Source: an uncultured Actinomycetes bacterium
GTDB taxonomy: Bacteria > Actinomycetota > Actinomycetes > S36-B12 > UBA10799
DNA: 64,000 nucleotides
Direction of reading: 5' to 3'
NCBI GenBank assembly: GCA_964547485.1
Contig: CAZJNU010000003.1
Span: 18,752-82,751 of the forward strand
Shown here: piece by piece, positions 1-27,092 of the stretch
How positions within the stretch are numbered: the first letter of the stretch is position 1
Layout: each line of letters begins with the position of its first letter
Translations under genes and position numbers: made by a program
The notes under the pieces: model-generated
The model's database searches: none
The model's input: only the letters and a program-made list of their open reading frames with translations
Told to the model about the DNA's origin: nothing

Positions 1-1097
1 TCCAGTCGGATGCGCTCACCGAACTCATCGGCAACGAGGCTGGCATAGAGGTGCTGCTCGTCGAGTGTGAGCCGAGCCAGGCGTGCCGCCGACGGTTGGG
101 CCTCCGTCACCCACCGATCGCGGTGAGCAATCAGCGTCTCGCGGTCCATAAGTGTCGAGCGAGCGTGCGGGAGGCCTACCCGGAGCCGGTCGAGAATTGC
201 AAAGCCGTGGGTGTCGATGTCGCCCCAATAGAGCACCGTGGCGTCGGCCAGCCAAGGCAGCCGCGCAACCCTGTCCACGGCGAACCCCTTGCCCCAAATC
301 ACCAATCCGTCCTCGGGGACATCGACGCTCAGGCAGGTGATCTCGTTCTCGATCACGATGGCGGTTGTCGGGGTCACCGGTAGCGCCATGAGTTCATCCG
401 GGCGAACAGCCATCTCAGTCAGCTGCGCTGGCAGGCCCAACGACGGGGCAGGTCGGAGCCGAACAAGTTCCGGCTTCGACCTCAACCCGAGGCCTGAGAG
501 GAAGCCGGAGCTCTTCGCAGGAACGTCGAGCATCCCCGCCAGCGCCACACGATGCCGTTCGGCAAACTTGGTGTCGACACCTGGAGCGCTGATCTCGCGC
601 AGATACCGGCCAGATTGACGATTGCGGTCCAGCCAGACGTAGGCGGCCAGCAGGTGCGGCATTTCGGACTCAACTGTGAGCGCGTTGTGCGGGTGCTCAA
701 CGATCCAGGCGCGGACTGCGCGATGGGCGCTGGCAAGCACGAGCAGCTCATCGAATCGACGCACCGAACTCGCAACCTTCAGTAACGCCCAAGCCTGCTC
801 GAACGAGGACACCAAGGCCCGCACCGGTAGCTGGTTGCGGCCGATGTCTCGCCCGCCGATGGCCTTCCATTCGAGGGTGTAAAGGCGGTCGTCATGACGC
901 CCCCGATCGAGCGCACCCACCCATTGGCGTGCGGCCGAGATGTCGTCGCCGATCTGGGACGGTTTGGGTCCGCGCAGGGGCACCGGGATCGACTCGAATG
1001 CATCACCTCTGGAATAGGTCCGCAACAGCGACCCATCATCCCAACGGCGCCTCACAGCGCCGGCAACGTCGGCAGGGGTGCTCCAATGGCTGCTCAC
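1..1097 (-). CDS. jetD: Wadjet nuclease JetD (DUF3322 + DUF2220, Toprim), runs off the left edge
   Basis: Not in the ORF track. Manual translation from GTG 1097 (GTGA overlap with the jetC stop) is open to base 1: MSSHWSTPADVAGAVRRRWDDG...GVDTKFAERH...IVIENEIT...WGKGF...LYWGDIDTHGFAIL, with Toprim E and DxD motifs. Confidence 0.9.
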   Translation of the reverse strand, partial: MSSHWSTPADVAGAVRRRWDDGSLLRTYSRGDAFESIPVPLRGPKPSQIGDDISAARQWVGALDRGRHDDRLYTLEWKAIGGRDIGRNQLPVRALVSSFEQAWALLKVASSVRRFDELLVLASAHRAVRAWIVEHPHNALTVESEMPHLLAAYVWLDRNRQSGRYLREISAPGVDTKFAERHRVALAGMLDVPAKSSGFLSGLGLRSKPELVRLRPAPSLGLPAQLTEMAVRPDELMALPVTPTTAIVIENEITCLSVDVPEDGLVIWGKGFAVDRVARLPWLADATVLYWGDIDTHGFAILDRLRVGLPHARSTLMDRETLIAHRDRWVTEAQPSAARLARLTLDEQHLYASLVADEFGERIRL

Positions 1098-3275
1098 GGA
1101 ACTCGCCCGTCGCGCTGCGCCCGGTACTCCTCGATCGTCATCGTCTGCAGCCGGGATCCAGTCCCGGAGGGATTGTCGACGAATCCGATCGCCTTGACAT
1201 ACGGCTCGATGACGTGAACCTTCTGCAGCGGCGTGACAATCAACAGTTGCAGGCCCAACTTGGCGAAGAGTTCCAGCGCGTAGCGGGTCGAGAGGTCCGA
1301 GCCTCGCCCGAATGCCTCGTCGATCACCGCGAAACGGAAGTCCCGTGACTTCTCCACCCCCCACTCGAGCCCGAATTGGTAGGCCAACGAGGCAGCCAGG
1401 ATCGTGTAGGCAAGCTTCTCCTTCTGGCCGCCAGATTTGCCATCCGAGTCGCTGTAGTGCTCCCACTCGACATCACTCTCGGCGTCCCGTTCGGAGGCCG
1501 AGAATACAAACCAATTGCGCACGTCGGTGACCCTGCGGGTCCACGCCCTATCTGCGTCGCCGTAGCCGTCGCGACCGCGGAACCGCTCAATGATCCGCTT
1601 GACGTCGAGGAATCGCTGCTCCGAGTACTGATCGCCGTCGACTGCCAGGCTGTCGTTGGTGAGGTTGCGCAAATCGGATCGGAACTGCGCAACCTCCTGA
1701 TTACTGGTGAGTTCCTTCTCCAGTCGGATGTAGCGGCCCGGGTTGTAGGCCACCGCTCCCAGCGCCTCGTTGATCCGAGCGACCCGCTCATCAATCGCTG
1801 ATGCCTGCCGGTTCAGCCAGTTGTTGAACCCGGCAAGTTCCTGGATCGCGTTCTTGTTGAGTTGCTCCTTGAACTCGTTCTCGAACCGCGGCAGATCATC
1901 CGTTGCGACGCGGTCGCGAAACGCCAGGAAGTCGCCCCGACTCTCGACGGCCGCGTCCATATCGGCCGCCAGTTCCGGCCACCGCCGCAGCACGTCGGCC
2001 ATGTACTGACCCAGGCTCTGTCCGTACCCGCCGAGTTCTCTGGTGAGGCGCTCAATACTCCGATGTAAGTCACCGAAAAGGCTGGCCTCGGCCTCGGCGC
2101 AGTCTGTCGCGCGGGCGGGAATCTTCGCTCCGAGGCGCAGGTTCAGAGCCTCGTAGACGGCGCGGGCACCTGCCAGCACGTCGTCCGTCTGTCCGGATAC
2201 AAACGTGTCGTCCCCGTTCCGGTCCTGCTCCGCCTTCTTCACTTCTTGAGCCGTCGTCGCGAGTTTGCCGGTGAGATGCTCAATCGACTTCTCCACTAAA
2301 GCGCCGAGGTCGGAATTTCGGGCTAAGGCTTTGGTGATCTCCTCCAACTTCGACGAACCCGCCTCCAATCGGGCTCGTTCGGAGTCATGACCTTGTGCGC
2401 GGGACTCGGCCTCGGCTGCATCGAGGTCGATCCAGGATCGGAACCCCTCCAACCGCGCAAGCGCTTCCTGTCCGCTCTGTACGGCGTCCCGCTCGGCGGT
2501 GAGCACCGCCAGCTCGCCAGTAGTCTCCTCCCGCTTGATGTTCAACTCGGCGAGATCTTCGCGCAGAGCGGTGATCTTGCGTTCGTTGGCCCACCCGAGC
2601 ACCCATCGCCGGGCGTCATCGATCGCGTGTCGGTCGTCCCTTTCGTGTCGATCACCGGATCTCACTTGGCCTTCGCGAGTGACCGCCTTCCGCTGGCTGC
2701 GGAACTCCTCGAGGTCTGCCGCACAGCGGTGATCGGCCCGTCTCATGAGTTCCTCAACCAGGTAGTCCCGGAACGGTCCGACCTTGACCTCCACGCAGTC
2801 TGCCAGCAGCAGCTCCCCATGGTGGTGTGACTGGAGCGGTACTCGCCTGCTCGGAACGCGCAGATAGGTGAGTTTCGCACCGACGGTACGACCGCCACGT
2901 CCGTGGAAGGTGAGTCGTCGACCATTCACCCATTCCGCAACGACGTCATAGTGCTGCTGCGGCACAAGCAGTGATATTGCGAACCCGCGCAACACCCGCT
3001 CGGCTGCCCCGCGCCACTCAGAGTACTCGTCATAGACATCGAGGAGTTCCCCTGCGTAAGGCAGGTCGTCAGGTGTCAACCCGAGATCCCCGCAGAGCTG
3101 AGCCCGCAGCTCCACTTGCTCAATCGGGAGGTTGCTGGTCCGCTGCTCGAGACTGGCAAGTTCGGCAGTGACGCGGTCGCAGTCGCGTTGAATCTCCCGT
3201 TCACGACCGATCCCGTCGACACTGGCCGCGTCGATGTCCCGCTTCCTGGTGGCGAGCCGGGGGCGCTCCACGGAG
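1094..3275 (-). pseudogene. jetC: Wadjet SMC-like ATPase JetC, C-terminal ~725 codons only
   Basis: SNLP...LPYAGELLDV...AAERVLRGFAISLLVP, coiled coils, KSGGQKEKLAYTILAA and Walker B IDEAF are present. No N-terminal Walker A lobe. The first ~135 aa of the tracked 862-aa ORF are an off-frame read of jetA. Confidence 0.85.
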
Positions 3276-3599
3276 CGGCGTGACTTCGTAGTGCACCTCG
3301 TCGTCGTCCGCCGGGTAGAACCGTCGCAGGTAACCGGCGTCGGTGGCAGCCCAGTCCTCCAAGTAGGCACGCGACTCCTTGGGAAACCGTAAGTCCCCGC
3401 TCTCCACCTGGATGTCGGCGTTGAGCGCGTAGAGCTGATCGTCCAATGCTGCCGCGACATCGCTCGCCGAGCACGCGCCGCGGTTGCCGTCAACGAAGTA
3501 GCCGCCGAGGAAGGACATAATGAGAGCGGAGTTGCCCGCACGCAGCAGTCGCCACGCTGGGTGGCGACCCCGCAGCGCCTCGATCTCGTCGTACTCCAT
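3276..3599 (-). pseudogene. jetA: Wadjet JetA (DUF3375) N-terminal fragment
   Basis: ATG 3599 gives MEYDEIEALRGRHPAWRLLRAGNSALIMSFL...YLEDWA...GYLRRFYP..DDEVHYEVTP, then abruptly joins jetC sequence out of frame (stop at 3201). Confidence 0.85.
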
Positions 3600-22108: not shown

Positions 22109-23482
22109 TCAGGCCCACGATGCGGGGACCGTATTCGTCGCGTCAACCACGTTCACGCAGTCGCTGCGATGCACCGTCAGGGTTCCGTCTCGCAGGCCCC
22201 GAGCCACGATCGCAACCGGTGCCATCGGCGTCGGAGAGCAGCACTGCGCCATTCGATAGGGCATGGCTTCCGCACCGGGGATCGTGACCGTTGCCTGGGT
22301 GGCGCCTTCGGGTGCCGGTGACTTAGGTCGCACCGGGCCGGGCTGCCCGACCGCGGGCTCTGCAGCTCGGGGGGACAACTCCGCGACATCGCGGAGTTGT
22401 CGGCGGATCTTGGTGCGCACGCGCGGCGTGACCACCCACCGCAACCAGTCGGCATTCGGACCCGCCCGCCGACCAACGCGCACCTCCACCGTGTCGCCGT
22501 CGCCCAGCACCGTTGACAAGGCCGCACCCTGACCGTTGATCCTGGCCCCGACACAGGTCGCACCGACGTTGGAGTGGATGGCGTAGGCGAAGTCGATGAC
22601 GCAGGCGCCGCGCCGCAGCACGATCGCCTGACCAGCCGGGGTGTACACGGTCACGTTGTCTGGCACGTCGTTGCCGGCGAGGACCGTCGACAGCCAGGCG
22701 GGTTCACCGTCACTGCCAAGCTTGTAGGCCCAGTGCGCCGCACGGCCGAATCTGGCGTCGTGGTGCATGCTGTCGGTGCGGATCTGCACCTCGACGCGTC
22801 TGGCATCCTCCGTGACGACGATGTGCAGCGAGGAGTACCCCGAGGCCTTGGCGCGCGCCACGTAGTCACGCCAGCCGCTGGCATCGAAGTCATGGCGCGA
22901 CGCGATACCCGAGACGGCCTCGTAGCACGTCGGGGTGTCTGCGACGACAAGCCGGACACCCAGCAGGTCATGGAGGTTCAGCAGGCGAGCGAGGTCGCCG
23001 CCGGATTTCGCCCACGCGCTCTGTGGCGACTTCACCCGATGCTCCACCTGCGTCACCTCGACGCCGGTCTGCGCCGCGAGGCGCGCGGCCACGCCGGCAA
23101 GCCAGTGGGACATCGCCGGGTAGTCGACGACTGCGACGATGCGTTGGTAGTCCATTGGCCGTTGCAGTCGAAAACAATGCTCACCGATGGCCCGGCTCAG
23201 GTCGTCGTCTCCGAGACGCTCGGCCAGGATCGCGTGCACGCCGGTCGCTACGTCCACGAGGCTATCCATCGTCACACCTGCGTCGTCGAGCATCTCGCGC
23301 AGCGGGGTGGGTTCACCGGCAAGGGTCGACGCGACACGGCCCAAGTGCTCTCGCAACACGTGGGGATCGCCAGCTTTGGCGGCGATGCTGGCAAGCATGT
23401 CCGTGGCCGCGAGTCGATCTCTGTTGAGCAGCAGGGTGCACAACTGTGCGTCGAGTGCGTCCTGGCCCGAAGCTGCGTTCAA
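22109..23482 (-). CDS. RelA/SpoT homolog: synthetase + TGS + helical + Zn-finger, no HD hydrolase and no ACT
   Basis: RVKS..SAWAK, HDLLGVR, DY....K.SGY.SLH, EVQIRT..MH..A..G.AAHW.YK, TGS (VYTP.G...DFAYAIHSNVG), CC..P...VHR.DC. Confidence 0.85.
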   Translation of the reverse strand: MNAASGQDALDAQLCTLLLNRDRLAATDMLASIAAKAGDPHVLREHLGRVASTLAGEPTPLREMLDDAGVTMDSLVDVATGVHAILAERLGDDDLSRAIGEHCFRLQRPMDYQRIVAVVDYPAMSHWLAGVAARLAAQTGVEVTQVEHRVKSPQSAWAKSGGDLARLLNLHDLLGVRLVVADTPTCYEAVSGIASRHDFDASGWRDYVARAKASGYSSLHIVVTEDARRVEVQIRTDSMHHDARFGRAAHWAYKLGSDGEPAWLSTVLAGNDVPDNVTVYTPAGQAIVLRRGACVIDFAYAIHSNVGATCVGARINGQGAALSTVLGDGDTVEVRVGRRAGPNADWLRWVVTPRVRTKIRRQLRDVAELSPRAAEPAVGQPGPVRPKSPAPEGATQATVTIPGAEAMPYRMAQCCSPTPMAPVAIVARGLRDGTLTVHRSDCVNVVDATNTVPASWA

Positions 23483-23796
23483 CGGTCTCTCGTTTCGGCG
23501 CCGATCCGTGCGTACCCGCTGAGTCTATCGCGGTCGACGCGCTCGGATTCTGTTGCGGAGGTGCCGGCCCGCCTCCTTGGACGCGCCGCTGTAGTTGCGG
23601 AAATCGCTCGAAAGGCACGTCGTCGCCGACGGGTGGCCCTCCAGTCGGAGTCCAGGTTCGTTGACACTCCCCGCTGCGAATAGCAGACTCGAATTAAGGG
23701 ACGAGCGACACGCAGGCGGGATCGCACAATCGCGCCCAGGCCACCTCGGAGTCGAATCCGGCGTGGTCGTGACACACGGAGTGGGAGGTTCTGATC

Positions 23797-24255
23797 ATGG
23801 CTAAGAACGGAGGCGGGGTCATCTTGGTGGGGGTGGATGGCTCACCCGCCAGCCTGGAGGCGCTCACGTGGGCCGCTGAAGAGGCCAAGATTCGCCGAGC
23901 GGAATTGCATGTCCTCAGGGTCTGGTCGCTGCATCTGGGCGGCACCAGCGTCGGCGGCACGCCAGCGCCGTCGTACGCCGTTCAAGACAGCGGCAAGGCG
24001 GCCAAGGCAGCTTTGGAGCAGTCGATCCGGGAGACGCTGGGCAAAGCTCCGGGGCTTGACGTGCGTGCCTCGGTGGCGCACGGAAACCCGGCGAAAGTCT
24101 TGATCGACACCGCATCGAAGGAGCGGGCCAAAATGCTGGTGGTCGCCAGCCGCGGCATGGGAGGCTTCAAGAAGCTGCTGCTCGGCTCAGTGAGTTCGCA
24201 ATGCGTCGCGCATGCCGCGTGCCCCGTCACCGTCATCCACCCGCGGACCGGGTAG
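23797..24255 (+). CDS. Universal stress protein
   Basis: ILVGVDGSPAS..AL.WA..EA...MLVVASRGMGGFKKLLLGSVS..CV.HA.CPV.VI. Confidence 0.95.
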   Translation: MAKNGGGVILVGVDGSPASLEALTWAAEEAKIRRAELHVLRVWSLHLGGTSVGGTPAPSYAVQDSGKAAKAALEQSIRETLGKAPGLDVRASVAHGNPAKVLIDTASKERAKMLVVASRGMGGFKKLLLGSVSSQCVAHAACPVTVIHPRTG

Positions 24256-24269
24256 CCCACCCGACGTTT

Positions 24270-24536
24270 CCGTCCACGGCGGTCCGCAACAACTTCGCAG
24301 ACGAGGTCGACCAGACCCACGAACGTGTCTACGTCACCCGCAACGGCCGTGACTTCGTGGTCCTACTGTCCAAAGCCGACCTCGATTCACTCGAGGCAAC
24401 ACTCGAGTTGCTGACCGACCAGGCCGCGCAGCAAAGGCTGGCCGACGCCGAGCGAGCCGTGGTCACAGGCGATCTCACCAGTGCAGCGGAGATGGCCTCG
24501 TTGATGGAGGAGCGTCGGCGCGCCAGTGGGGTCTAA
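24270..24536 (+). pseudogene. Phd/YefM (RelB-type) antitoxin, 5'-damaged
   Basis: VRNNF.ADEVDQTHERVYVTRNGR..VVLLS..DLDSLEATLELL.D. There is no in-frame start codon between the usp stop and this region. Confidence 0.7.
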
Positions 24537-24664
24537 GACCGACTACCTCATCACCCTGTCCCCGGGAGCCAGGCGTGCCCTGACCGACGAATTGCCAGAG
24601 GCCGCAGCCTTCGCTGCCTGGGAGTTCATCTCAGGTGCCGGGTCATCGTGCTGGATATCGCCAG
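24526..24664 (+). pseudogene. RelE/ParE toxin remnant with internal deletion
   Basis: YLITLSPGARRAL..ELPEAAAFAAWEFISG joins in another frame directly to RVIVLDIA. The central catalytic region is missing. Confidence 0.7.
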
Positions 24665-26392
24665 TCAGCAGCACTTTGACCGAGTGGCGTGTTCCGGCAG
24701 GTCCTGATGTTTGGAGGGATCTATTTGCTCCACCTCAGCAATGAAGGAGTCGAGGTCGATCTTGTGACCGTGCAACCACGTTCCGAGTACCTGGACGTGG
24801 TTGGTGAGGGTGCCTACGTCGACCTTGTAGGGGTCAGCGGACAGCTCAACGAAGTCGGCGAGTTTGCCCACTGCGATTGAGCCGAGGTCGTGCTCGCGGC
24901 GCAGATGGTAGGCCGCGTTGATCGTGACCGCTTTCAGCGCATCATCCACTGTCACGGCCTGGTTTGGTCCGTGAAGTTCGCCGGCCAAAGTCCTGCGGGT
25001 GGCCATGCATTGGATGTCCAGTAGCGGGATGGCCGGTGCCACCGGACTGTCGGAGTGGAACGAAATCTTCGCACCCGCCCGCACCGCATCACCGGCGGCG
25101 CACACCTGACTGCCGATCTCGGTGGCGAACAGCGCCCCGTCGAAGATGTCGTCTTGGTAGATGAACTGGTAGGCCGCCAGGGGTGTTGCCACACCCAATG
25201 CCACTGCTCGCCCGAACTGGTCGGCTCGACCGGTGGTCCAATGCTCGAGGCGCCAGCGGTGATCCGTCCCAAGCAGGCCGTGTCGGGCCAGCGCAGCAGC
25301 GTATCCGTCGAGAACGAAGTCAACGGCCACGTCTCCGTGCGCGTGGACCGCGAGTTGCATTCCGGTGGTGGCGAAGGTGTCTAGCGCCGCGTCGAACTGC
25401 ACCCTGGTGTAGTTCATGACTGAATCACCGCTTGGCCCAAGCGGAATCTGGGCGGCCTTCGTGGTGGCGTTGTCGAGGTAGGGGAACGACGCCGCCAGCG
25501 TGCCATTGAACGGCGTGCCATCGGACCACATCTTGATGCCGACTTTCCAGAGCCGGTCCTCGGCTACCTCCGACGTGAATGACTCCGTGCAGCTCGGTTC
25601 GGTGGCGGCGTGGTACAGCCCGACGCGGATGGGGCTATCGACGAGAGCTCCGAGGGCTTCGTAGGCCGGCGACATTGCTGAGGAGAAGGCGTGTTCGCTC
25701 GTGGTCGTGATGCCCGCCTCGGCCAGCTTTCGGTACCACCGGGCCGCTGACAGGAGTGGGTGCGGAATCGCCGCCGACTGCACCTTTCCCGCCGCCGCTA
25801 GCACTGCAGCCGGCTCATAGGCGCGTCCGTTCGAAGTGCCGTCGGCGTTCCTCCCGTAGCGCGCCGCTTCCGGATCGGCGGGCGGCTTACCGTCCGCCCA
25901 ACCGTTGAACGCGATCGTCGCAGAGTTGAAGTAGATCTCGTGCCCAGATATATCCATCACGACAGCCGGACGAGTCGGGAAGAACTCGTCCAGATCCGTG
26001 TTCGTCAGTTCGGGAGCACCCTGACCGGGGCGCTCCAGTCCGTAACACACGACGGGTTGACCCGCTGGCAGGGTCCGATCCAGGGTGCGCCACAACGCCT
26101 GGACGTCGGCGTAGGTGGGGTAGCCCTGGCTCCGAGCAATCCAGTTCGAAGGATCCTGGGTGTAGATGCCCGACAGCACCGGATGGCTGTGGGCCTCGAT
26201 GAACCCCGGCATTAGCACCGTGTCGCCAAGGTCGGTGACCTCTACGCCCGGTGCCGCGGACTGGCATTCGGCGAGCGTGCCAACCGCCACGATGGAGCCG
26301 GTCAGGGTGTCCACAGCTACCGCCTCGGCGCGCGGGCTAGCGGGCTCCATGGTGATGATGGAGGAAGCCTTCAGGATCAGGTCAGCGGTCAC
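24665..26392 (-). CDS. Amidohydrolase-3 (YtcJ-like) family metallohydrolase
   Basis: PGFIEAHSH, IKMWSDG, VHAHGD, RLEH, FHSDSPV, GSIAVGKLADFV. Confidence 0.92.
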   Translation of the reverse strand: MTADLILKASSIITMEPASPRAEAVAVDTLTGSIVAVGTLAECQSAAPGVEVTDLGDTVLMPGFIEAHSHPVLSGIYTQDPSNWIARSQGYPTYADVQALWRTLDRTLPAGQPVVCYGLERPGQGAPELTNTDLDEFFPTRPAVVMDISGHEIYFNSATIAFNGWADGKPPADPEAARYGRNADGTSNGRAYEPAAVLAAAGKVQSAAIPHPLLSAARWYRKLAEAGITTTSEHAFSSAMSPAYEALGALVDSPIRVGLYHAATEPSCTESFTSEVAEDRLWKVGIKMWSDGTPFNGTLAASFPYLDNATTKAAQIPLGPSGDSVMNYTRVQFDAALDTFATTGMQLAVHAHGDVAVDFVLDGYAAALARHGLLGTDHRWRLEHWTTGRADQFGRAVALGVATPLAAYQFIYQDDIFDGALFATEIGSQVCAAGDAVRAGAKISFHSDSPVAPAIPLLDIQCMATRRTLAGELHGPNQAVTVDDALKAVTINAAYHLRREHDLGSIAVGKLADFVELSADPYKVDVGTLTNHVQVLGTWLHGHKIDLDSFIAEVEQIDPSKHQDLPEHATRSKCC

Positions 26393-26445: not shown

Positions 26446-26859
26446 CTACCGACCAACGTCCAGCGTGACGACCGTGACGGATTCGATCCCGGCGAAGTCG
26501 TCAGGGTTGCGAGTGAACACCGGAAGGTCGTTGGCCACCGCGGTCGCAGCGATGAGCGCGTCATACGCCCGGGCGCTGCTCTTACGGCCCGCAGCCCGCA
26601 GTTGCGCGGCGACACGACCAAAGGCCCGGGCGGCCCGATCGTCGAAAGGGATGGGGTCGAAGTCGGCCTCCACCTGTTGTAACACGCTCTGGCGCGCGAC
26701 TCGCTCCGCGGCCGTTCTCGCCACCAGCGGACCGACAGAGAGCTCGGCCAAAGTGATCGCAGACACGAAACACCGAGCGGGGAGCCCCCTCAAGTCGGTG
26801 AGCCCGCCGAGGCTAACGACGACGCTTGTGTCCAACAAGCCACGTTCGTGCGGGCTCAC
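26446..26859 (-). CDS. vapC: VapC PIN-domain toxin
   Basis: LLDTSV, ITLAEL, AYDALIAATA, TRNPDDF, with the acidic tetrad intact. Confidence 0.93.
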   Translation of the reverse strand: MSPHERGLLDTSVVVSLGGLTDLRGLPARCFVSAITLAELSVGPLVARTAAERVARQSVLQQVEADFDPIPFDDRAARAFGRVAAQLRAAGRKSSARAYDALIAATAVANDLPVFTRNPDDFAGIESVTVVTLDVGR

Positions 26860-27092
26860 AGATTGGGGTCCAGGATGTTATCGAGGTCGGTCCGCAGGTC
26901 CGCCAGATCGATCACAGGGATGGTGTGCCAACGCTCAACCAGAACGGTCGCCGGAGTCCCGCCTCCTGCGACGGGGCGCAGCTCGGCGACGGGCTTGCCC
27001 TGGCGCGTCACCGTCACACTCTCGCCGCGCATCACCGAATCAAGTACGTCACCGCCGTGATTGCGGAGGTCGCGAACGCTCACTTCAGTCAT
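26856..27092 (-). CDS. vapB: Phd-type VapB antitoxin
   Basis: MTEVSVRDLRNHGGDVLDSV.RGE.V.VTR.GKPVAEL, with a GTGA overlap with vapC. Confidence 0.92.
   Translation of the reverse strand: MTEVSVRDLRNHGGDVLDSVMRGESVTVTRQGKPVAELRPVAGGGTPATVLVERWHTIPVIDLADLRTDLDNILDPNL

What the first reader, a model, noticed from the sequence alone, without database searches (positions are those of the whole stretch)
22109..23482. Intermediate-length RelA/SpoT homolog: SYNTH-TGS-AH-ZFD without HD or ACT
Seen: synthetase motifs are nearly intact (one change, A-R-F-G where AExG is usual). TGS, the helical domain and the CC Zn-finger are present. The protein stops right where ACT would begin, and the ~115-aa N-terminus keeps only the hydrolase-distal helix (LAERLG) with no HD motif. 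An in-frame stop upstream rules out a longer N-terminus. It is divergent from usp in an accessory region. Known: long RSHs have HD+SYNTH+TGS+AH+ZFD+ACT, while small alarmone synthetases lack TGS. Inference: a synthetase-only alarmone enzyme that may still sense ribosome/tRNA state, or a trimmed toxic or defence RSH.
Basis: partly seen in the sequence, partly recalled or inferred. Interest (0 to 1): 0.7.

Follow-up and report, generated by a model that had tools for sequence, protein, structure and literature searches.

The report
Trimmed RelA/SpoT enzyme: synthetase, TGS, zinc finger
An uncultured wastewater actinobacterium carries an intact, selectively maintained extra stress-alarmone synthetase that keeps two of the ribosome/tRNA-sensing modules of the classical stringent factor but has lost the hydrolase, the helical domain and the C-terminal regulatory domain; it belongs to a very rare, undescribed RelA/SpoT subfamily and has not been tested experimentally.

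Summary
The ORF at 22109..23482 (minus strand, 457 aa, TTG start) is real. It encodes a RelA_SpoT synthetase domain (Pfam 2e-25), a TGS domain (1e-19) and a C-terminal Zn-finger/RIS domain. There is no HD hydrolase domain and no ACT/RRM.

The alpha-helical (AH) domain is absent. Only its first helix remains, followed by a roughly 25-aa disordered Pro-rich linker.

It is not a pseudogene. About ten homologues (46-98% identity, 454-495 aa) share both boundaries, and dN/dS against an 85%-identical homologue is 0.14.

The family is very rare. It forms one 50%-identity cluster among 1.84 billion representatives and occurs in one other GTDB species genome. It is absent from all 8 congeners and present in 1 of 26 genomes of the same family. 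It sits on a very long branch that an AU test cannot separate from actinobacterial Rel. The host also has a canonical Rel with an intact HD motif and a small synthetase.

All core catalytic residues are kept, as are the tRNA-CCA-stacking His and the four Zn ligands. Two residues at or beside the reported guanosine contacts are changed family-wide (N306S; E336 to R/Q/K).

The gene is monocistronic with no conserved partner and lies in variable, often defence-rich regions.

Best reading: a monofunctional alarmone synthetase regulated through TGS and ZFD.

Verdict: a new variant of a known kind, of moderate interest.

The parts
22109..23482 (-). Complete CDS of the trimmed RSH (457 aa, TTG start at 23482, TGA stop at 22109-22111)
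   Evidence: ORF list and translation. The in-frame stop lies 14 codons upstream. Homologues start at the same point.
23267..23482 (-). Residues 1-72: family-specific helical N-terminal region (helices 6-19, 26-37, 40-54, 60-68). The invariant 'AQLCTLLLN..RL' motif lies here. There are no HD catalytic residues.
   Evidence: Conserved across the family. dN/dS is 0.22. There is no significant profile similarity to the HD domain (hhalign E 0.27) and no Pfam hit. AlphaFold pLDDT is 83-97 from residue 11.
22703..23266 (-). Residues 73-260: junction helices (LAERLG = APLAxRLG of long RSHs) plus the SYNTH (pyrophosphokinase) domain. Catalytic D172 and E231 lie here.
   Evidence: Pfam RelA_SpoT 148-256. 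hhalign to long-RSH columns 176 onward. Residue conservation table. dN/dS is 0.08. Foldseek matches RelA, Rel and SpoT structures.
22376..22660 (-). Residues 275-369: TGS domain (277-334) with invariant H303 (= E. coli RelA H432), plus the single retained helix (353-369) that starts the AH domain in long RSHs
   Evidence: Pfam TGS 1.1e-19. Alignment to RelA 457-547 and 379-497. AlphaFold pLDDT is 82-96. dN/dS is 0.12 for residues 261-366.
22298..22375 (-). Residues 370-395: Pro/Ala-rich disordered linker that takes the place of the alpha-helical (AH) domain
   Evidence: hhalign gap opposite the long-RSH AH region. pLDDT is below 50 for residues 371-395. Length and sequence vary among homologues.
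22112..22297 (-). Residues 396-457: Zn-finger / ribosome-intersubunit (ZFD/RIS/CC) domain with ligands C414, C415, H438 and C442. The protein ends at W456-A457, where the ACT/RRM would begin.
   Evidence: phmmer alignment to the ZFD of M. smegmatis Rel (648-696) and E. coli RelA. hhalign. Precomputed PF28438 RelA_RIS hits on homologues P0005-P0007. pLDDT is 88-94 from residue 401. Ligand conservation.
23483..23796 (.). 314-bp divergent intergenic region shared with usp. It presumably holds the promoter and the weak purine-rich RBS (GAGAG) of the RSH gene. This assignment is inferred only.
   Evidence: Sequence. The consensus scan found one sigma-70-like site, which faces usp, and none for the RSH gene.

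Best explanation
This gene encodes a functional, stand-alone member of a small, undescribed RelA/SpoT-homologue subfamily found in uncultured Actinomycetota.

Its architecture is a family-specific helical N-terminus, junction helices, SYNTH, TGS, one helix, a disordered Pro-rich linker and a Zn-finger (ZFD/RIS) domain. Compared with a long RSH it lacks the recognisable HD hydrolase domain, nearly all of the alpha-helical domain and the whole ACT/RRM domain.

It most likely acts as a monofunctional pyrophosphokinase that transfers pyrophosphate from ATP to GDP/GTP to make (p)ppGpp. Its activity is probably gated by the two retained sensor modules. The TGS domain would read the 3'-CCA of deacylated tRNA, and the ZFD would anchor the protein at the ribosomal A-site finger. 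The flexible linker would bridge the distance normally spanned by the AH domain. Degradation of the product would fall to the HD domain of the host's canonical Rel.

What is shown: the gene is intact, its boundaries are conserved and it is under purifying selection. The domain content is established, and the catalytic, CCA-stacking and Zn-ligand residues are conserved. The distribution is accessory and patchy.

What is inferred: the enzymatic activity, the identity of the product, and regulation by the ribosome or tRNA.

The confidence of 0.6 refers to the functional reading. That this is a real, conserved gene of a distinct trimmed RSH subfamily I hold at about 0.95.
For: - Real, conserved gene. 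Nine protein clusters plus L007 and G010 share 46-98% identity and lengths of 454-495 aa, with the same N- and C-terminal boundaries.
- Purifying selection. dN/dS is 0.14 overall against the 85%-identical L004 gene, and 0.08-0.22 in every segment including the N-terminus and the ZFD.
- Synthetase competence. These residues are invariant in the family: R149, K151, K159, D172, R177, K212, Y216, H220, E231, Q233 and R235. With the window+92 offset they equal RelSeq R241, D264, R269, Y308 and E323. PMC7983052 lists D264 and E323 as catalytic, R241 and R269 as sandwiching adenine, and Y308 as stacking guanine. D172 and E231 also map to E. coli RelA D275 and E335 when counted on the alignment.
- Sensor modules. 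H303 equals E. coli RelA H432, counted on the alignment. That His stacks on the CCA end and is required for activation by tRNA (PMC7797070). C414/C415 equal C612/C613, and H438 and C442 are conserved. CC-to-AA and H432E substitutions abolish ribosome-dependent activity in RelA and Rel (PMC7058999).
- Precedent. F. tularensis RelA naturally lacks the RRM and is still activated by ribosomes (PMC7058999).
- Fold. The AlphaFold model has mean pLDDT 87.5, and only residues 1-4 and 371-395 are disordered. Its best Foldseek hits are ribosome-bound RelA, B. subtilis Rel and SpoT.
- A hydrolase is available in trans. The host's canonical Rel has an intact HDTVEDT motif next to secF and is cut only by a contig end.
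Against:
- The AH domain is missing. In B. subtilis Rel the TGS domain alone did not bind tRNA, while TGS-Helical did (PMC7797070), so tRNA sensing may be weak or lost.
- The position of E. coli RelA R629 (B. subtilis R619), which is important for the A-site-finger contact, is G433 in the family. Only the neighbouring R431 is conserved (my reading).
- Family-wide replacements occur at residues that are near-invariant in long RSHs. N306 becomes S at a residue listed as contacting the guanosine. E336 becomes R/Q/K next to A335, another listed contact. Changes at H194, P199, P211 and T221 add to this. The acceptor nucleotide may therefore differ.
- The score against the NCBIfam spoT_relA model is 218 bits, against a cut-off of 499.
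- An unbalanced synthetase lacking both HD and RRM would be expected to be toxic, by analogy with the deltaRRM mutants. This fits the defence/toxin rival as well as it fits this reading.
Confidence: 0.6

Rival explanations
1. It is a toxic or defence-type RSH. In this reading the protein is a naturally 'deregulated' synthetase, lacking the RRM, the HD and the AH. It would be kept silent until phage infection or another insult, then shut down growth by overproducing alarmone or by modifying tRNA, in an abortive-infection-like manner.
For: - The gene is accessory and patchily distributed. It is absent from 8 of 8 congeners and present in 1 of 26 genomes of the same family.
- Its neighbourhood changes between homologues and is often rich in defence or mobile genes. 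A complete Wadjet jetABCD lies one gene away in L004. An IS607-like resolvase/TnpB pair and a PsyrT-like helicase occur in L005. The window itself holds Phd/YefM and VapBC modules. Earlier, unchecked notes also report a Wadjet remnant and Abi and Fic genes in the window.
- The family sits on a very long stem branch.
Against: - There is no conserved adjacent small gene or overlapping bicistron of the kind that marks toxSAS modules (PMC7229694). The gene is monocistronic in the window, L004 and L006.
- PADLOC gives only a weak hit confined to the SYNTH core, to candidate PDC-S33.
- No copy was found on plasmids or phages.
- Co-location with defence genes is loose, at kilobase scale, and was not tested statistically.
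Confidence: 0.17
2. It is an RSH with altered chemistry. The SYNTH domain would pyrophosphorylate a different acceptor, either adenine nucleotides to give (p)ppApp or the 3'-CCA end of tRNA presented by its own TGS domain, instead of GDP/GTP.
For: - Two replacements are fixed across the family at the acceptor pocket. RelSeq N306 becomes S214, and the Glu after A335 becomes R/Q/K244. N306 and A335 are listed among the residues that contact the guanosine.
- Other sites near-invariant in long RSHs are also changed (H194, P199, P211, T221).
- The TGS domain, with its CCA-stacking His, is retained beside the catalytic domain.
Against: - The stacking Tyr (Y216), K212, H220 and Q233 are unchanged.
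- Ser for Asn is a conservative change.
- No comparison was made with bona fide (p)ppApp synthetases or tRNA pyrophosphokinases. The best structural matches are (p)ppGpp-making long RSHs, and CapRel matched only weakly.
Confidence: 0.1
3. It is a decaying remnant of a duplicated rel gene, a pseudogene or gene fragment with no function.
For: Three of the six long-RSH domains are missing. The gene lies in an accessory region next to other degraded elements, including a Phd antitoxin followed by a 72-aa ORF with no family hit.
Against: - dN/dS is 0.14, and every segment is under constraint.
- The boundaries are identical in homologues that have diverged to 46% identity and from 37% to 68% GC.
- There are no internal stops or frameshifts, and catalytic and ligand residues are invariant.
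- The AlphaFold model is confident.
Confidence: 0.02

Closest known systems
Long RSHs: Rel / RelA / SpoT (e.g. M. smegmatis Rel 8fr8, E. coli RelA 5iqr, B. subtilis Rel 6yxa)
   Same: The SYNTH, TGS and ZFD/RIS domains are homologous and colinear. The catalytic D/E, the ATP-sandwiching Arg residues, the acceptor-stacking Tyr, the CCA-stacking His and the CC..H..C Zn ligands are all conserved. An AU test cannot separate the family from the actinobacterial Rel clade.
   Different: There is no HD domain, and the first 72 residues have no detectable similarity to it. The AH domain is absent apart from its first helix, and there is no ACT/RRM. Identity is only 36-38% to the Rel of related genomes. 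The score is 218 bits against the 499-bit cut-off of TIGR00691. The stem branch is very long.
Engineered deltaRRM Rel/RelA and the natural RRM-less RelA of Francisella tularensis (PMC7058999)
   Same: The protein ends right after the ZFD. TGS and ZFD are retained, and these are the elements that make deltaRRM variants ribosome-dependent.
   Different: Those proteins keep the HD or pseudo-HD domain and the AH domain. This family has lost both.
Small alarmone synthetases (RelQ/RelP/actRel etc.) and toxSAS (FaRel, FaRel2, PhRel, CapRel)
   Same: It is a synthetase-only RSH without a hydrolase. It is an extra, accessory copy alongside the housekeeping Rel.
   Different: SASs lack the C-terminal regulatory domains of long RSHs (PMC7229694), whereas this protein has TGS and ZFD. 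There is no conserved antitoxin-like neighbour. Its sequence and fold are closer to long RSHs than to SASs.
Other naturally trimmed RSHs seen here. These include Patescibacteria-type SYNTH-TGS-AH-RIS proteins (P0123, P0131, P0291, P0303, P0305), HD-SYNTH-TGS-ZFD proteins (P0015, P0126, P0134, P0137, P0140), and AH-less actinobacterial proteins (P0248 and a 721-aa Streptomyces protein that may be RshA-like, L080). Published cases are RshC, Salinispora RshA and H. ducreyi SpoT (PMC3153485).
   Same: Each shows independent loss of one or more of HD, AH and ACT. Several of them also end just after the ZFD.
   Different: None of those examined combines all three losses with an intact SYNTH. The Patescibacteria-type forms keep the AH (PF19296 hits). 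An exclusive grouping of the family with the AH-less actinobacterial forms is weakly rejected (post-hoc AU test, p = 0.018). The family forms its own clade with 100% support.

Membership tests
RSH superfamily (RelA/SpoT homologues) | Presence of the RelA_SpoT (SYNTH) nucleotidyltransferase domain, or the HD domain, above the family threshold | tested here: met
   PF04607 scores 89.5 bits against a cut-off of 27. The fold matches Rel, RelA and SpoT.
Long RSH (Rel/RelA/SpoT/RshA-D) | HD (or pseudo-HD) domain N-terminal to SYNTH. Atkinson 2011 treats long RSHs as carrying at least SYNTH and HD. | tested here: not met
   There is no HD or HD_4 hit at E <= 1. hhalign of residues 1-80 against the HD region gives E 0.27. 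The in-frame stop 14 codons upstream excludes a longer N-terminus.
Long RSH (Rel/RelA/SpoT/RshA-D) | TGS domain after SYNTH | tested here: met
   PF02824 scores 70.7 bits against a cut-off of 22.2.
Long RSH (Rel/RelA/SpoT/RshA-D) | Alpha-helical (Helical/AH) domain between TGS and ZFD | tested here: not met
   hhalign leaves a gap opposite the long-RSH AH region. There is no PF19296 hit. Residues 371-395 are disordered in the model.
Long RSH (Rel/RelA/SpoT/RshA-D) | ZFD/CC/RIS domain with conserved Cys-Cys...His...Cys | tested here: met
   Searches support this. PF28438 is precomputed on homologues.
Long RSH (Rel/RelA/SpoT/RshA-D) | C-terminal ACT/RRM domain | tested here: not met
   The protein ends 2 residues after the Trp that closes the ZFD. 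There are no PF13291 or PF01842 hits.
NCBIfam TIGR00691 spoT_relA | Whole-protein score above the curated cut-off | tested here: not met
   217.6 bits against a cut-off of 499.2.
Small alarmone synthetase (SAS) | SYNTH domain without an HD domain | tested here: met
Small alarmone synthetase (SAS) | Lacks the regulatory C-terminal domains of long RSHs (PMC7229694) | tested here: not met
   TGS and ZFD are present.
toxSAS toxin-antitoxin modules | Conserved, often overlapping bi- or tricistronic arrangement with an antitoxin gene | tested here: not met
   The neighbours differ in the window, L004, L005 and L006. The gene is flanked by divergent and convergent genes in the window, in L004 and, on its downstream side, in L006.
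toxSAS toxin-antitoxin modules | Toxicity on expression that depends on the SYNTH active site | not testable with these tools
   This needs an expression experiment.
RshA (actinobacterial Rel paralogue, Atkinson 2011) | Membership of the RshA[HS] clade, with HD and SYNTH domains | tested here: inconclusive
   The HD domain is absent. No verified RshA sequence was available. An exclusive clade with an unverified, possibly RshA-like Streptomyces protein (L080) and P0248 is weakly rejected (post-hoc AU test, p = 0.018). Grouping with the whole actinobacterial-type Rel clade is not rejected (p = 0.49).

The most novel reading that the evidence does not exclude
This could be a natural 'minimal stringent factor', in which TGS is tethered to a Zn-finger by a flexible linker and drives a hydrolase-free synthetase. 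Its acceptor pocket has been remodelled (N306S; E336 to a basic residue or Gln). On sensing uncharged tRNA or stalled ribosomes, for example during phage takeover, it might make a non-canonical product. That product could be (p)ppApp, or a pyrophosphorylated CCA end on the very tRNA that its TGS domain holds. If so, it would be a single-gene, ribosome-gated growth-arrest or defence effector, and a new functional class of RSH between the long RSHs and the toxSASs.
Probability: 0.08. Interest if true: 0.85.

Novelty: new variant of a known kind. Interest (0 to 1): 0.5.

Why it matters
RSH enzymes are usually sorted into two classes. Multi-domain 'long' factors read the ribosome, and single-domain 'small' synthetases or hydrolases do not. 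This family shows that selection can maintain an intermediate form. It is a hydrolase-free synthetase that keeps only TGS and the Zn-finger, joined by a flexible linker.

If it is active, it provides a natural test of which C-terminal modules are sufficient for ribosome or tRNA control of (p)ppGpp synthesis. That question has so far been addressed mainly with engineered truncations, some of which are toxic.

The family also shows how a cell tolerates a synthetase that has neither an HD nor an RRM domain in cis. The fixed changes beside the acceptor-base pocket raise a testable question about product specificity.

The session also found that loss of HD, AH or ACT has happened repeatedly in uncultured lineages. 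At least one such protein, P0131, is auto-annotated in NCBI as a 'bifunctional' synthetase/hydrolase.

Two limits apply. The family is very rare and known only from metagenomes, and every functional statement here is an inference.

Tried and rejected
- Pseudogene or decay was rejected on three grounds: dN/dS of 0.14, boundaries conserved down to 46% identity, and invariant catalytic and ligand residues.
- N-terminus as a recognisable HD remnant was not supported. A global MAFFT alignment and my own reading suggested colinearity with the C-terminal HD helices. However, hhalign of residues 1-80 against the HD region gives E 0.27, and Pfam HD_4 gives nothing. A few HMMER alignments do run back to residues 24-26.
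- A toxSAS-type TA module was rejected because there is no conserved partner.
- Plasmid or phage carriage was not found. Only generic long-RSH matches below 34% identity appeared, and the viral fold library gave only SYNTH-core matches.
- A recent truncation of the host's own rel is unlikely. Identity to the Rel of related genomes is only 36-38%, and the free tree places the family on a long branch outside the own-order Rel clade. The AU test for grouping it with that clade is borderline (p = 0.06).
- Descent from AH-less actinobacterial (possibly RshA-like) RSHs was weakly rejected (post-hoc AU test, p = 0.018).
- The first AlphaFold run used a 9-sequence alignment and gave a poor C-terminal half (pLDDT 64). 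It was superseded by the 113-sequence run.
- The promoter/terminator scan was uninformative for this gene.
Full report
**Observation.** The window carries an uninterrupted ORF at 22109..23482 on the minus strand. It is 457 aa long with a TTG start. The open frame extends only 14 codons further upstream (471 aa), so a longer N-terminus is impossible.

Pfam finds RelA_SpoT at residues 148-256 (E 2.3e-25) and TGS at 277-334 (E 1.1e-19). It finds no HD, HD_4, AH_RIS or ACT, even at E <= 1. NCBIfam's long-RSH model spoT_relA scores 218 bits against a cut-off of 499.

A phmmer search of PDB sequences aligns the protein colinearly to M. smegmatis Rel in three pieces: 230-409, 457-547 and 648-696. It also aligns to E. 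coli RelA. The third piece is the Zn-finger/RIS domain and includes the Cys-Cys pair and the His..Cys pair.

The neighbours are as follows.
- Downstream and convergent lie a nitrile-hydratase-type cluster and a NicO Ni/Co transporter.
- Upstream and divergent lies a universal stress protein gene (23797..24255).
- Beyond that lie a Phd/YefM antitoxin, an amidohydrolase and a VapBC pair.

The alpha-helical domain is not there.
- Profile-profile alignment of the family against 28 long RSHs matches window residues 73-448 to long-RSH columns 176-641. It leaves the AH region of the long RSHs unmatched.
- In a joint alignment, the family has 37-42 residues between the helix after TGS and the ZFD.
- A 113-sequence AlphaFold model has mean pLDDT 87.5. 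It shows confident N-terminal helices, SYNTH, TGS, one helix (353-369) and the ZFD (from about residue 401, pLDDT 88-94). Residues 371-395 are disordered.
- The architecture is therefore N-terminal helices, SYNTH, TGS, linker, ZFD.

The first 72 residues are helical and conserved within the family, with an invariant AQLCTLLLN..RL motif. They show no significant similarity to the HD domain (hhalign E 0.27). Homology to long RSHs begins at the 'LAERLG' helix, which corresponds to APLAxRLG.

**Is it a real gene?** Yes, on three lines of evidence.
- A word-indexed search of 5.8 billion proteins found nine related clusters (P0002-P0010). They share 46-98% identity and, apart from two partial sequences, are 454-495 aa long. 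All come from metagenomes or MAGs labelled Actinomycetes or Actinomycetota. After them the score drops sharply to ordinary long RSHs of about 750 aa, from at least 319 bits to 173 bits.
- Their alignment shows the same start and the same end in every complete sequence.
- Against the gene of the 85%-identical homologue (L004), dN/dS is 0.14. By segment it is 0.22 for the N-terminus, 0.08 for SYNTH, 0.12 for TGS, 0.13 for the linker and 0.22 for the ZFD.

The homologues range from 37% to 68% GC, so the family has been maintained across substantial divergence.

**How rare is it, and where is it found?**
- An exhaustive HMM search of 1.84 billion cluster representatives found one family cluster (800 bits) and one fragment. 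Everything else scored at most 255 bits.
- Among one genome for each of 185,579 GTDB species, only one other genome has it. That is L007, at 94% identity, from an Actinomycetota MAG.
- Among 58 relatives of the host, none of the 8 congeners has it, and one of 26 genomes of the same family does (G010, 55% identity). All genomes of adequate completeness carry an ordinary Rel of about 770 aa that is only 36-38% identical to this protein.
- A DNA scan shows the block from the hydratase genes to usp is missing from all 8 congeners.
- No copy occurs on plasmids or phages.

The host MAG is 3.2 Mb and 91% complete. It also encodes a small synthetase (L002) and a canonical rel next to secF, with an intact HDTVEDT motif, that is cut only by a contig end. 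This gene is therefore an accessory third RSH.

**Phylogeny.** In maximum-likelihood trees of the shared region, the family is monophyletic with 100% support. It sits on a stem of about 1.6-1.7 substitutions per site, outside every sampled long-RSH clade. The AU tests gave these results.
- Joining it to the actinobacterial-type Rel clade is not rejected (p 0.56 and 0.49).
- Joining it only to the own-order Rel sequences is borderline (p 0.06).
- Joining it exclusively to two AH-less actinobacterial RSHs is weakly rejected (p 0.018). Those two are P0248 and a 721-aa Streptomyces protein that may be RshA-like. This grouping was chosen after the first trees had been seen, so the test is post hoc.

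The most economical reading is an old duplication of an actinobacterial-type Rel, followed by domain loss, fast divergence and lateral spread. The long branch makes this uncertain.

**Residue-level reading.** I used a constant offset of window+92 to RelSeq numbering. I checked it against the spacings R241-D264-R269-Y308-E323-A335 and, independently, against E. coli RelA D275/E335 on the alignment.
- The family keeps R149, K151, K159, D172, R177, K212, Y216, H220, E231, Q233 and R235. PMC7983052 names D264 and E323 as catalytic, R241 and R269 as sandwiching the ATP adenine, and Y308 as stacking on guanine. It lists Y308, N306, K305 and A335 as key residues at the guanosine.
- Two of the family-wide replacements lie exactly there. 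N306 becomes Ser214. The Glu after A335, which is 99% conserved in long RSHs, becomes R, Q or K at position 244.
- Other near-invariant long-RSH residues are also replaced in every member (G148, H152, G191, H194, P199, P211, T221). These are fixed differences, not random lesions.
- In the C-terminal half, H303 corresponds to E. coli RelA H432. That His stacks on the tRNA CCA end, and its mutation abolishes activation by tRNA (PMC7797070).
- C414/C415, H438 and C442 correspond to C612/C613, H634 and C638. The position of R629 is Gly in the family, with a conserved Arg two residues earlier. This last point is my reading.

**Mechanism.** The best-supported reading is a monofunctional alarmone synthetase whose activity is controlled through TGS and ZFD.

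The literature gives the frame for this. Rel or RelA lacking only the RRM still depends on the ribosome and tRNA, and becomes toxic through (p)ppGpp overproduction. That toxicity is relieved by H432E/H420E, by R629E/R619E or by CC-to-AA substitutions. F. tularensis RelA naturally lacks the RRM and is still activated by the ribosome (PMC7058999).

There is also evidence against a simple transfer of that model. Isolated TGS did not bind tRNA, whereas TGS-Helical did (PMC7797070), and this family has no Helical domain. A flexible linker of 25 to about 50 residues could span the gap, but that is inference.

Because the protein has no HD domain, alarmone removal must rely on the host Rel. This fits the gene's status as an add-on to a complete stringent system.

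**Rivals.**
- Toxic or defence role. The gene is accessory, and its neighbourhood differs in each homologue. It is often near defence or mobile genes. Wadjet lies one gene away in L004. IS607-type genes and a PsyrT-like helicase occur in L005. TA modules lie in the window, and earlier unchecked notes also report a Wadjet remnant and Abi and Fic genes there. There is, however, no conserved partner gene, and PADLOC gives only a weak SYNTH-core hit to a candidate family.
- Altered acceptor specificity. The two pocket changes allow this possibility, but nothing further supports it.
- Decay. This is excluded.

**Comparison with what is known.** Atkinson et al. 2011 (PMC3153485) list several exceptions to the six-domain long-RSH plan.
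- Francisella and a few other RelA or Rel proteins lack the ACT domain.
- Salinispora RshA lacks the CC and ACT domains.
- H. ducreyi SpoT lacks the helical and CC domains.

None of these is a hydrolase-less SYNTH-TGS-ZFD protein. Jimmy et al. 2020 (PMC7229694) describe SASs as lacking both the HD domain and the regulatory C-terminal domains. This protein fits neither class.

The session also turned up other trimmed RSHs in uncultured lineages.
- Patescibacteria-type SYNTH-TGS-AH-RIS proteins of 487-515 aa keep the AH domain. One of them, P0131, is annotated in NCBI as 'bifunctional'.
- HD-SYNTH-TGS-ZFD proteins of about 570-600 aa also occur.
- Several lineages are AH-less.

Domain trimming of long RSHs is therefore recurrent. 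This family is the most reduced form seen here that still has an intact synthetase and both the TGS and ZFD domains.

**Verdict.** The feature is real. It is a new variant, in effect an undescribed subfamily and architecture, of a well-known enzyme superfamily. Interest is moderate. It would appeal to specialists as a natural minimal construct and for its possible change in specificity. It is limited by extreme rarity, uncultured hosts and the absence of any functional data.

**Limits.**
- No verified RshA sequence or published RSH subfamily HMM was available.
- The trees used the quick search, and the family sits on a long branch.

Noticed in passing
L002:1297-2298 (G000 contig C4, minus strand): A second synthetase-only RSH occurs in the same genome. 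Its ORF is up to 333 aa, with RelA_SpoT at residues 170-266 (E 8e-17) and a long, Arg-rich N-terminal extension that may reflect an over-called start. It is probably an actinobacterial small alarmone synthetase.
   Followed up: partly
L003:1276-2025 (G000 contig C58 end): The canonical rel gene lies next to secF, with an intact HD motif (HDTVEDT). The contig end cuts it after 250 aa, so the assembly lacks its SYNTH and C-terminal part. That is why only two RelA_SpoT hits appear in the genome.
   Followed up: partly
window:24201-24744: A Phd/YefM antitoxin gene (24201-24536) is followed by an overlapping 72-aa ORF (24526-24744). That ORF has no family hit and runs into the convergent amidohydrolase gene. 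It may be a truncated toxin remnant of a type II TA pair.
   Followed up: no
window:26446-27092 (minus strand): An apparently intact VapBC-type pair is present: a PIN-domain toxin (26446-26859) preceded by a Phd/YefM-like antitoxin (26856-27092).
   Followed up: no
window:17560-17670: A stretch of about 100 nt inside the gene ending near 18000 matches dozens of places in this genome and in all congeners at 72-88% identity. It is probably a repeated linker or CBM-coding module and not a mobile element.
   Followed up: no
L004:1-7864: In the activated-sludge contig carrying the 85%-identical homologue, a complete Wadjet-like jetABCD set (DUF3375, MksE/JetB, SbcC-like ATPase, JetD) and a beta-lactamase-family gene lie directly upstream of the RSH gene. 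Earlier notes report a degraded Wadjet operon at 1-3599 of the window.
   Followed up: partly
L005:9271-16394: Downstream of the 50%-identical homologue lie an IS607-like serine resolvase with a TnpB (Cas12f-like) pair and a helicase that matches the PADLOC PsyrT model at E 1e-171.
   Followed up: partly
P0123, P0131, P0291, P0303, P0305 (proteins): These are candidate-phylum (Patescibacteria-type) RSHs of 487-515 aa with SYNTH, TGS, AH and RIS but no HD or ACT domain. P0131 is annotated in NCBI as a 'bifunctional (p)ppGpp synthetase/hydrolase', which its domain content does not support.
   Followed up: partly
L080:3395-5560 (Streptomyces sp. BHT-5-2 record NZ_CP081497.1): An unannotated 721-aa RSH has an intact HD motif, a degenerate SYNTH (AETLIRT in place of EVQIRT), a Pro-rich linker instead of the AH domain, and ZFD and ACT domains. 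It may be an RshA-type paralogue. The 2.8-Mb 'plasmid' record carries only one annotated feature.
   Followed up: partly
L011, L013, L015, L016, L019, L049: MAGs labelled Woesearchaeota, Nanoarchaeota or 'archaeon' encode RSHs in open frames of 641-670 aa. The spacer between TGS and ZFD is only about 27 residues, so they also lack the AH domain.
   Followed up: no
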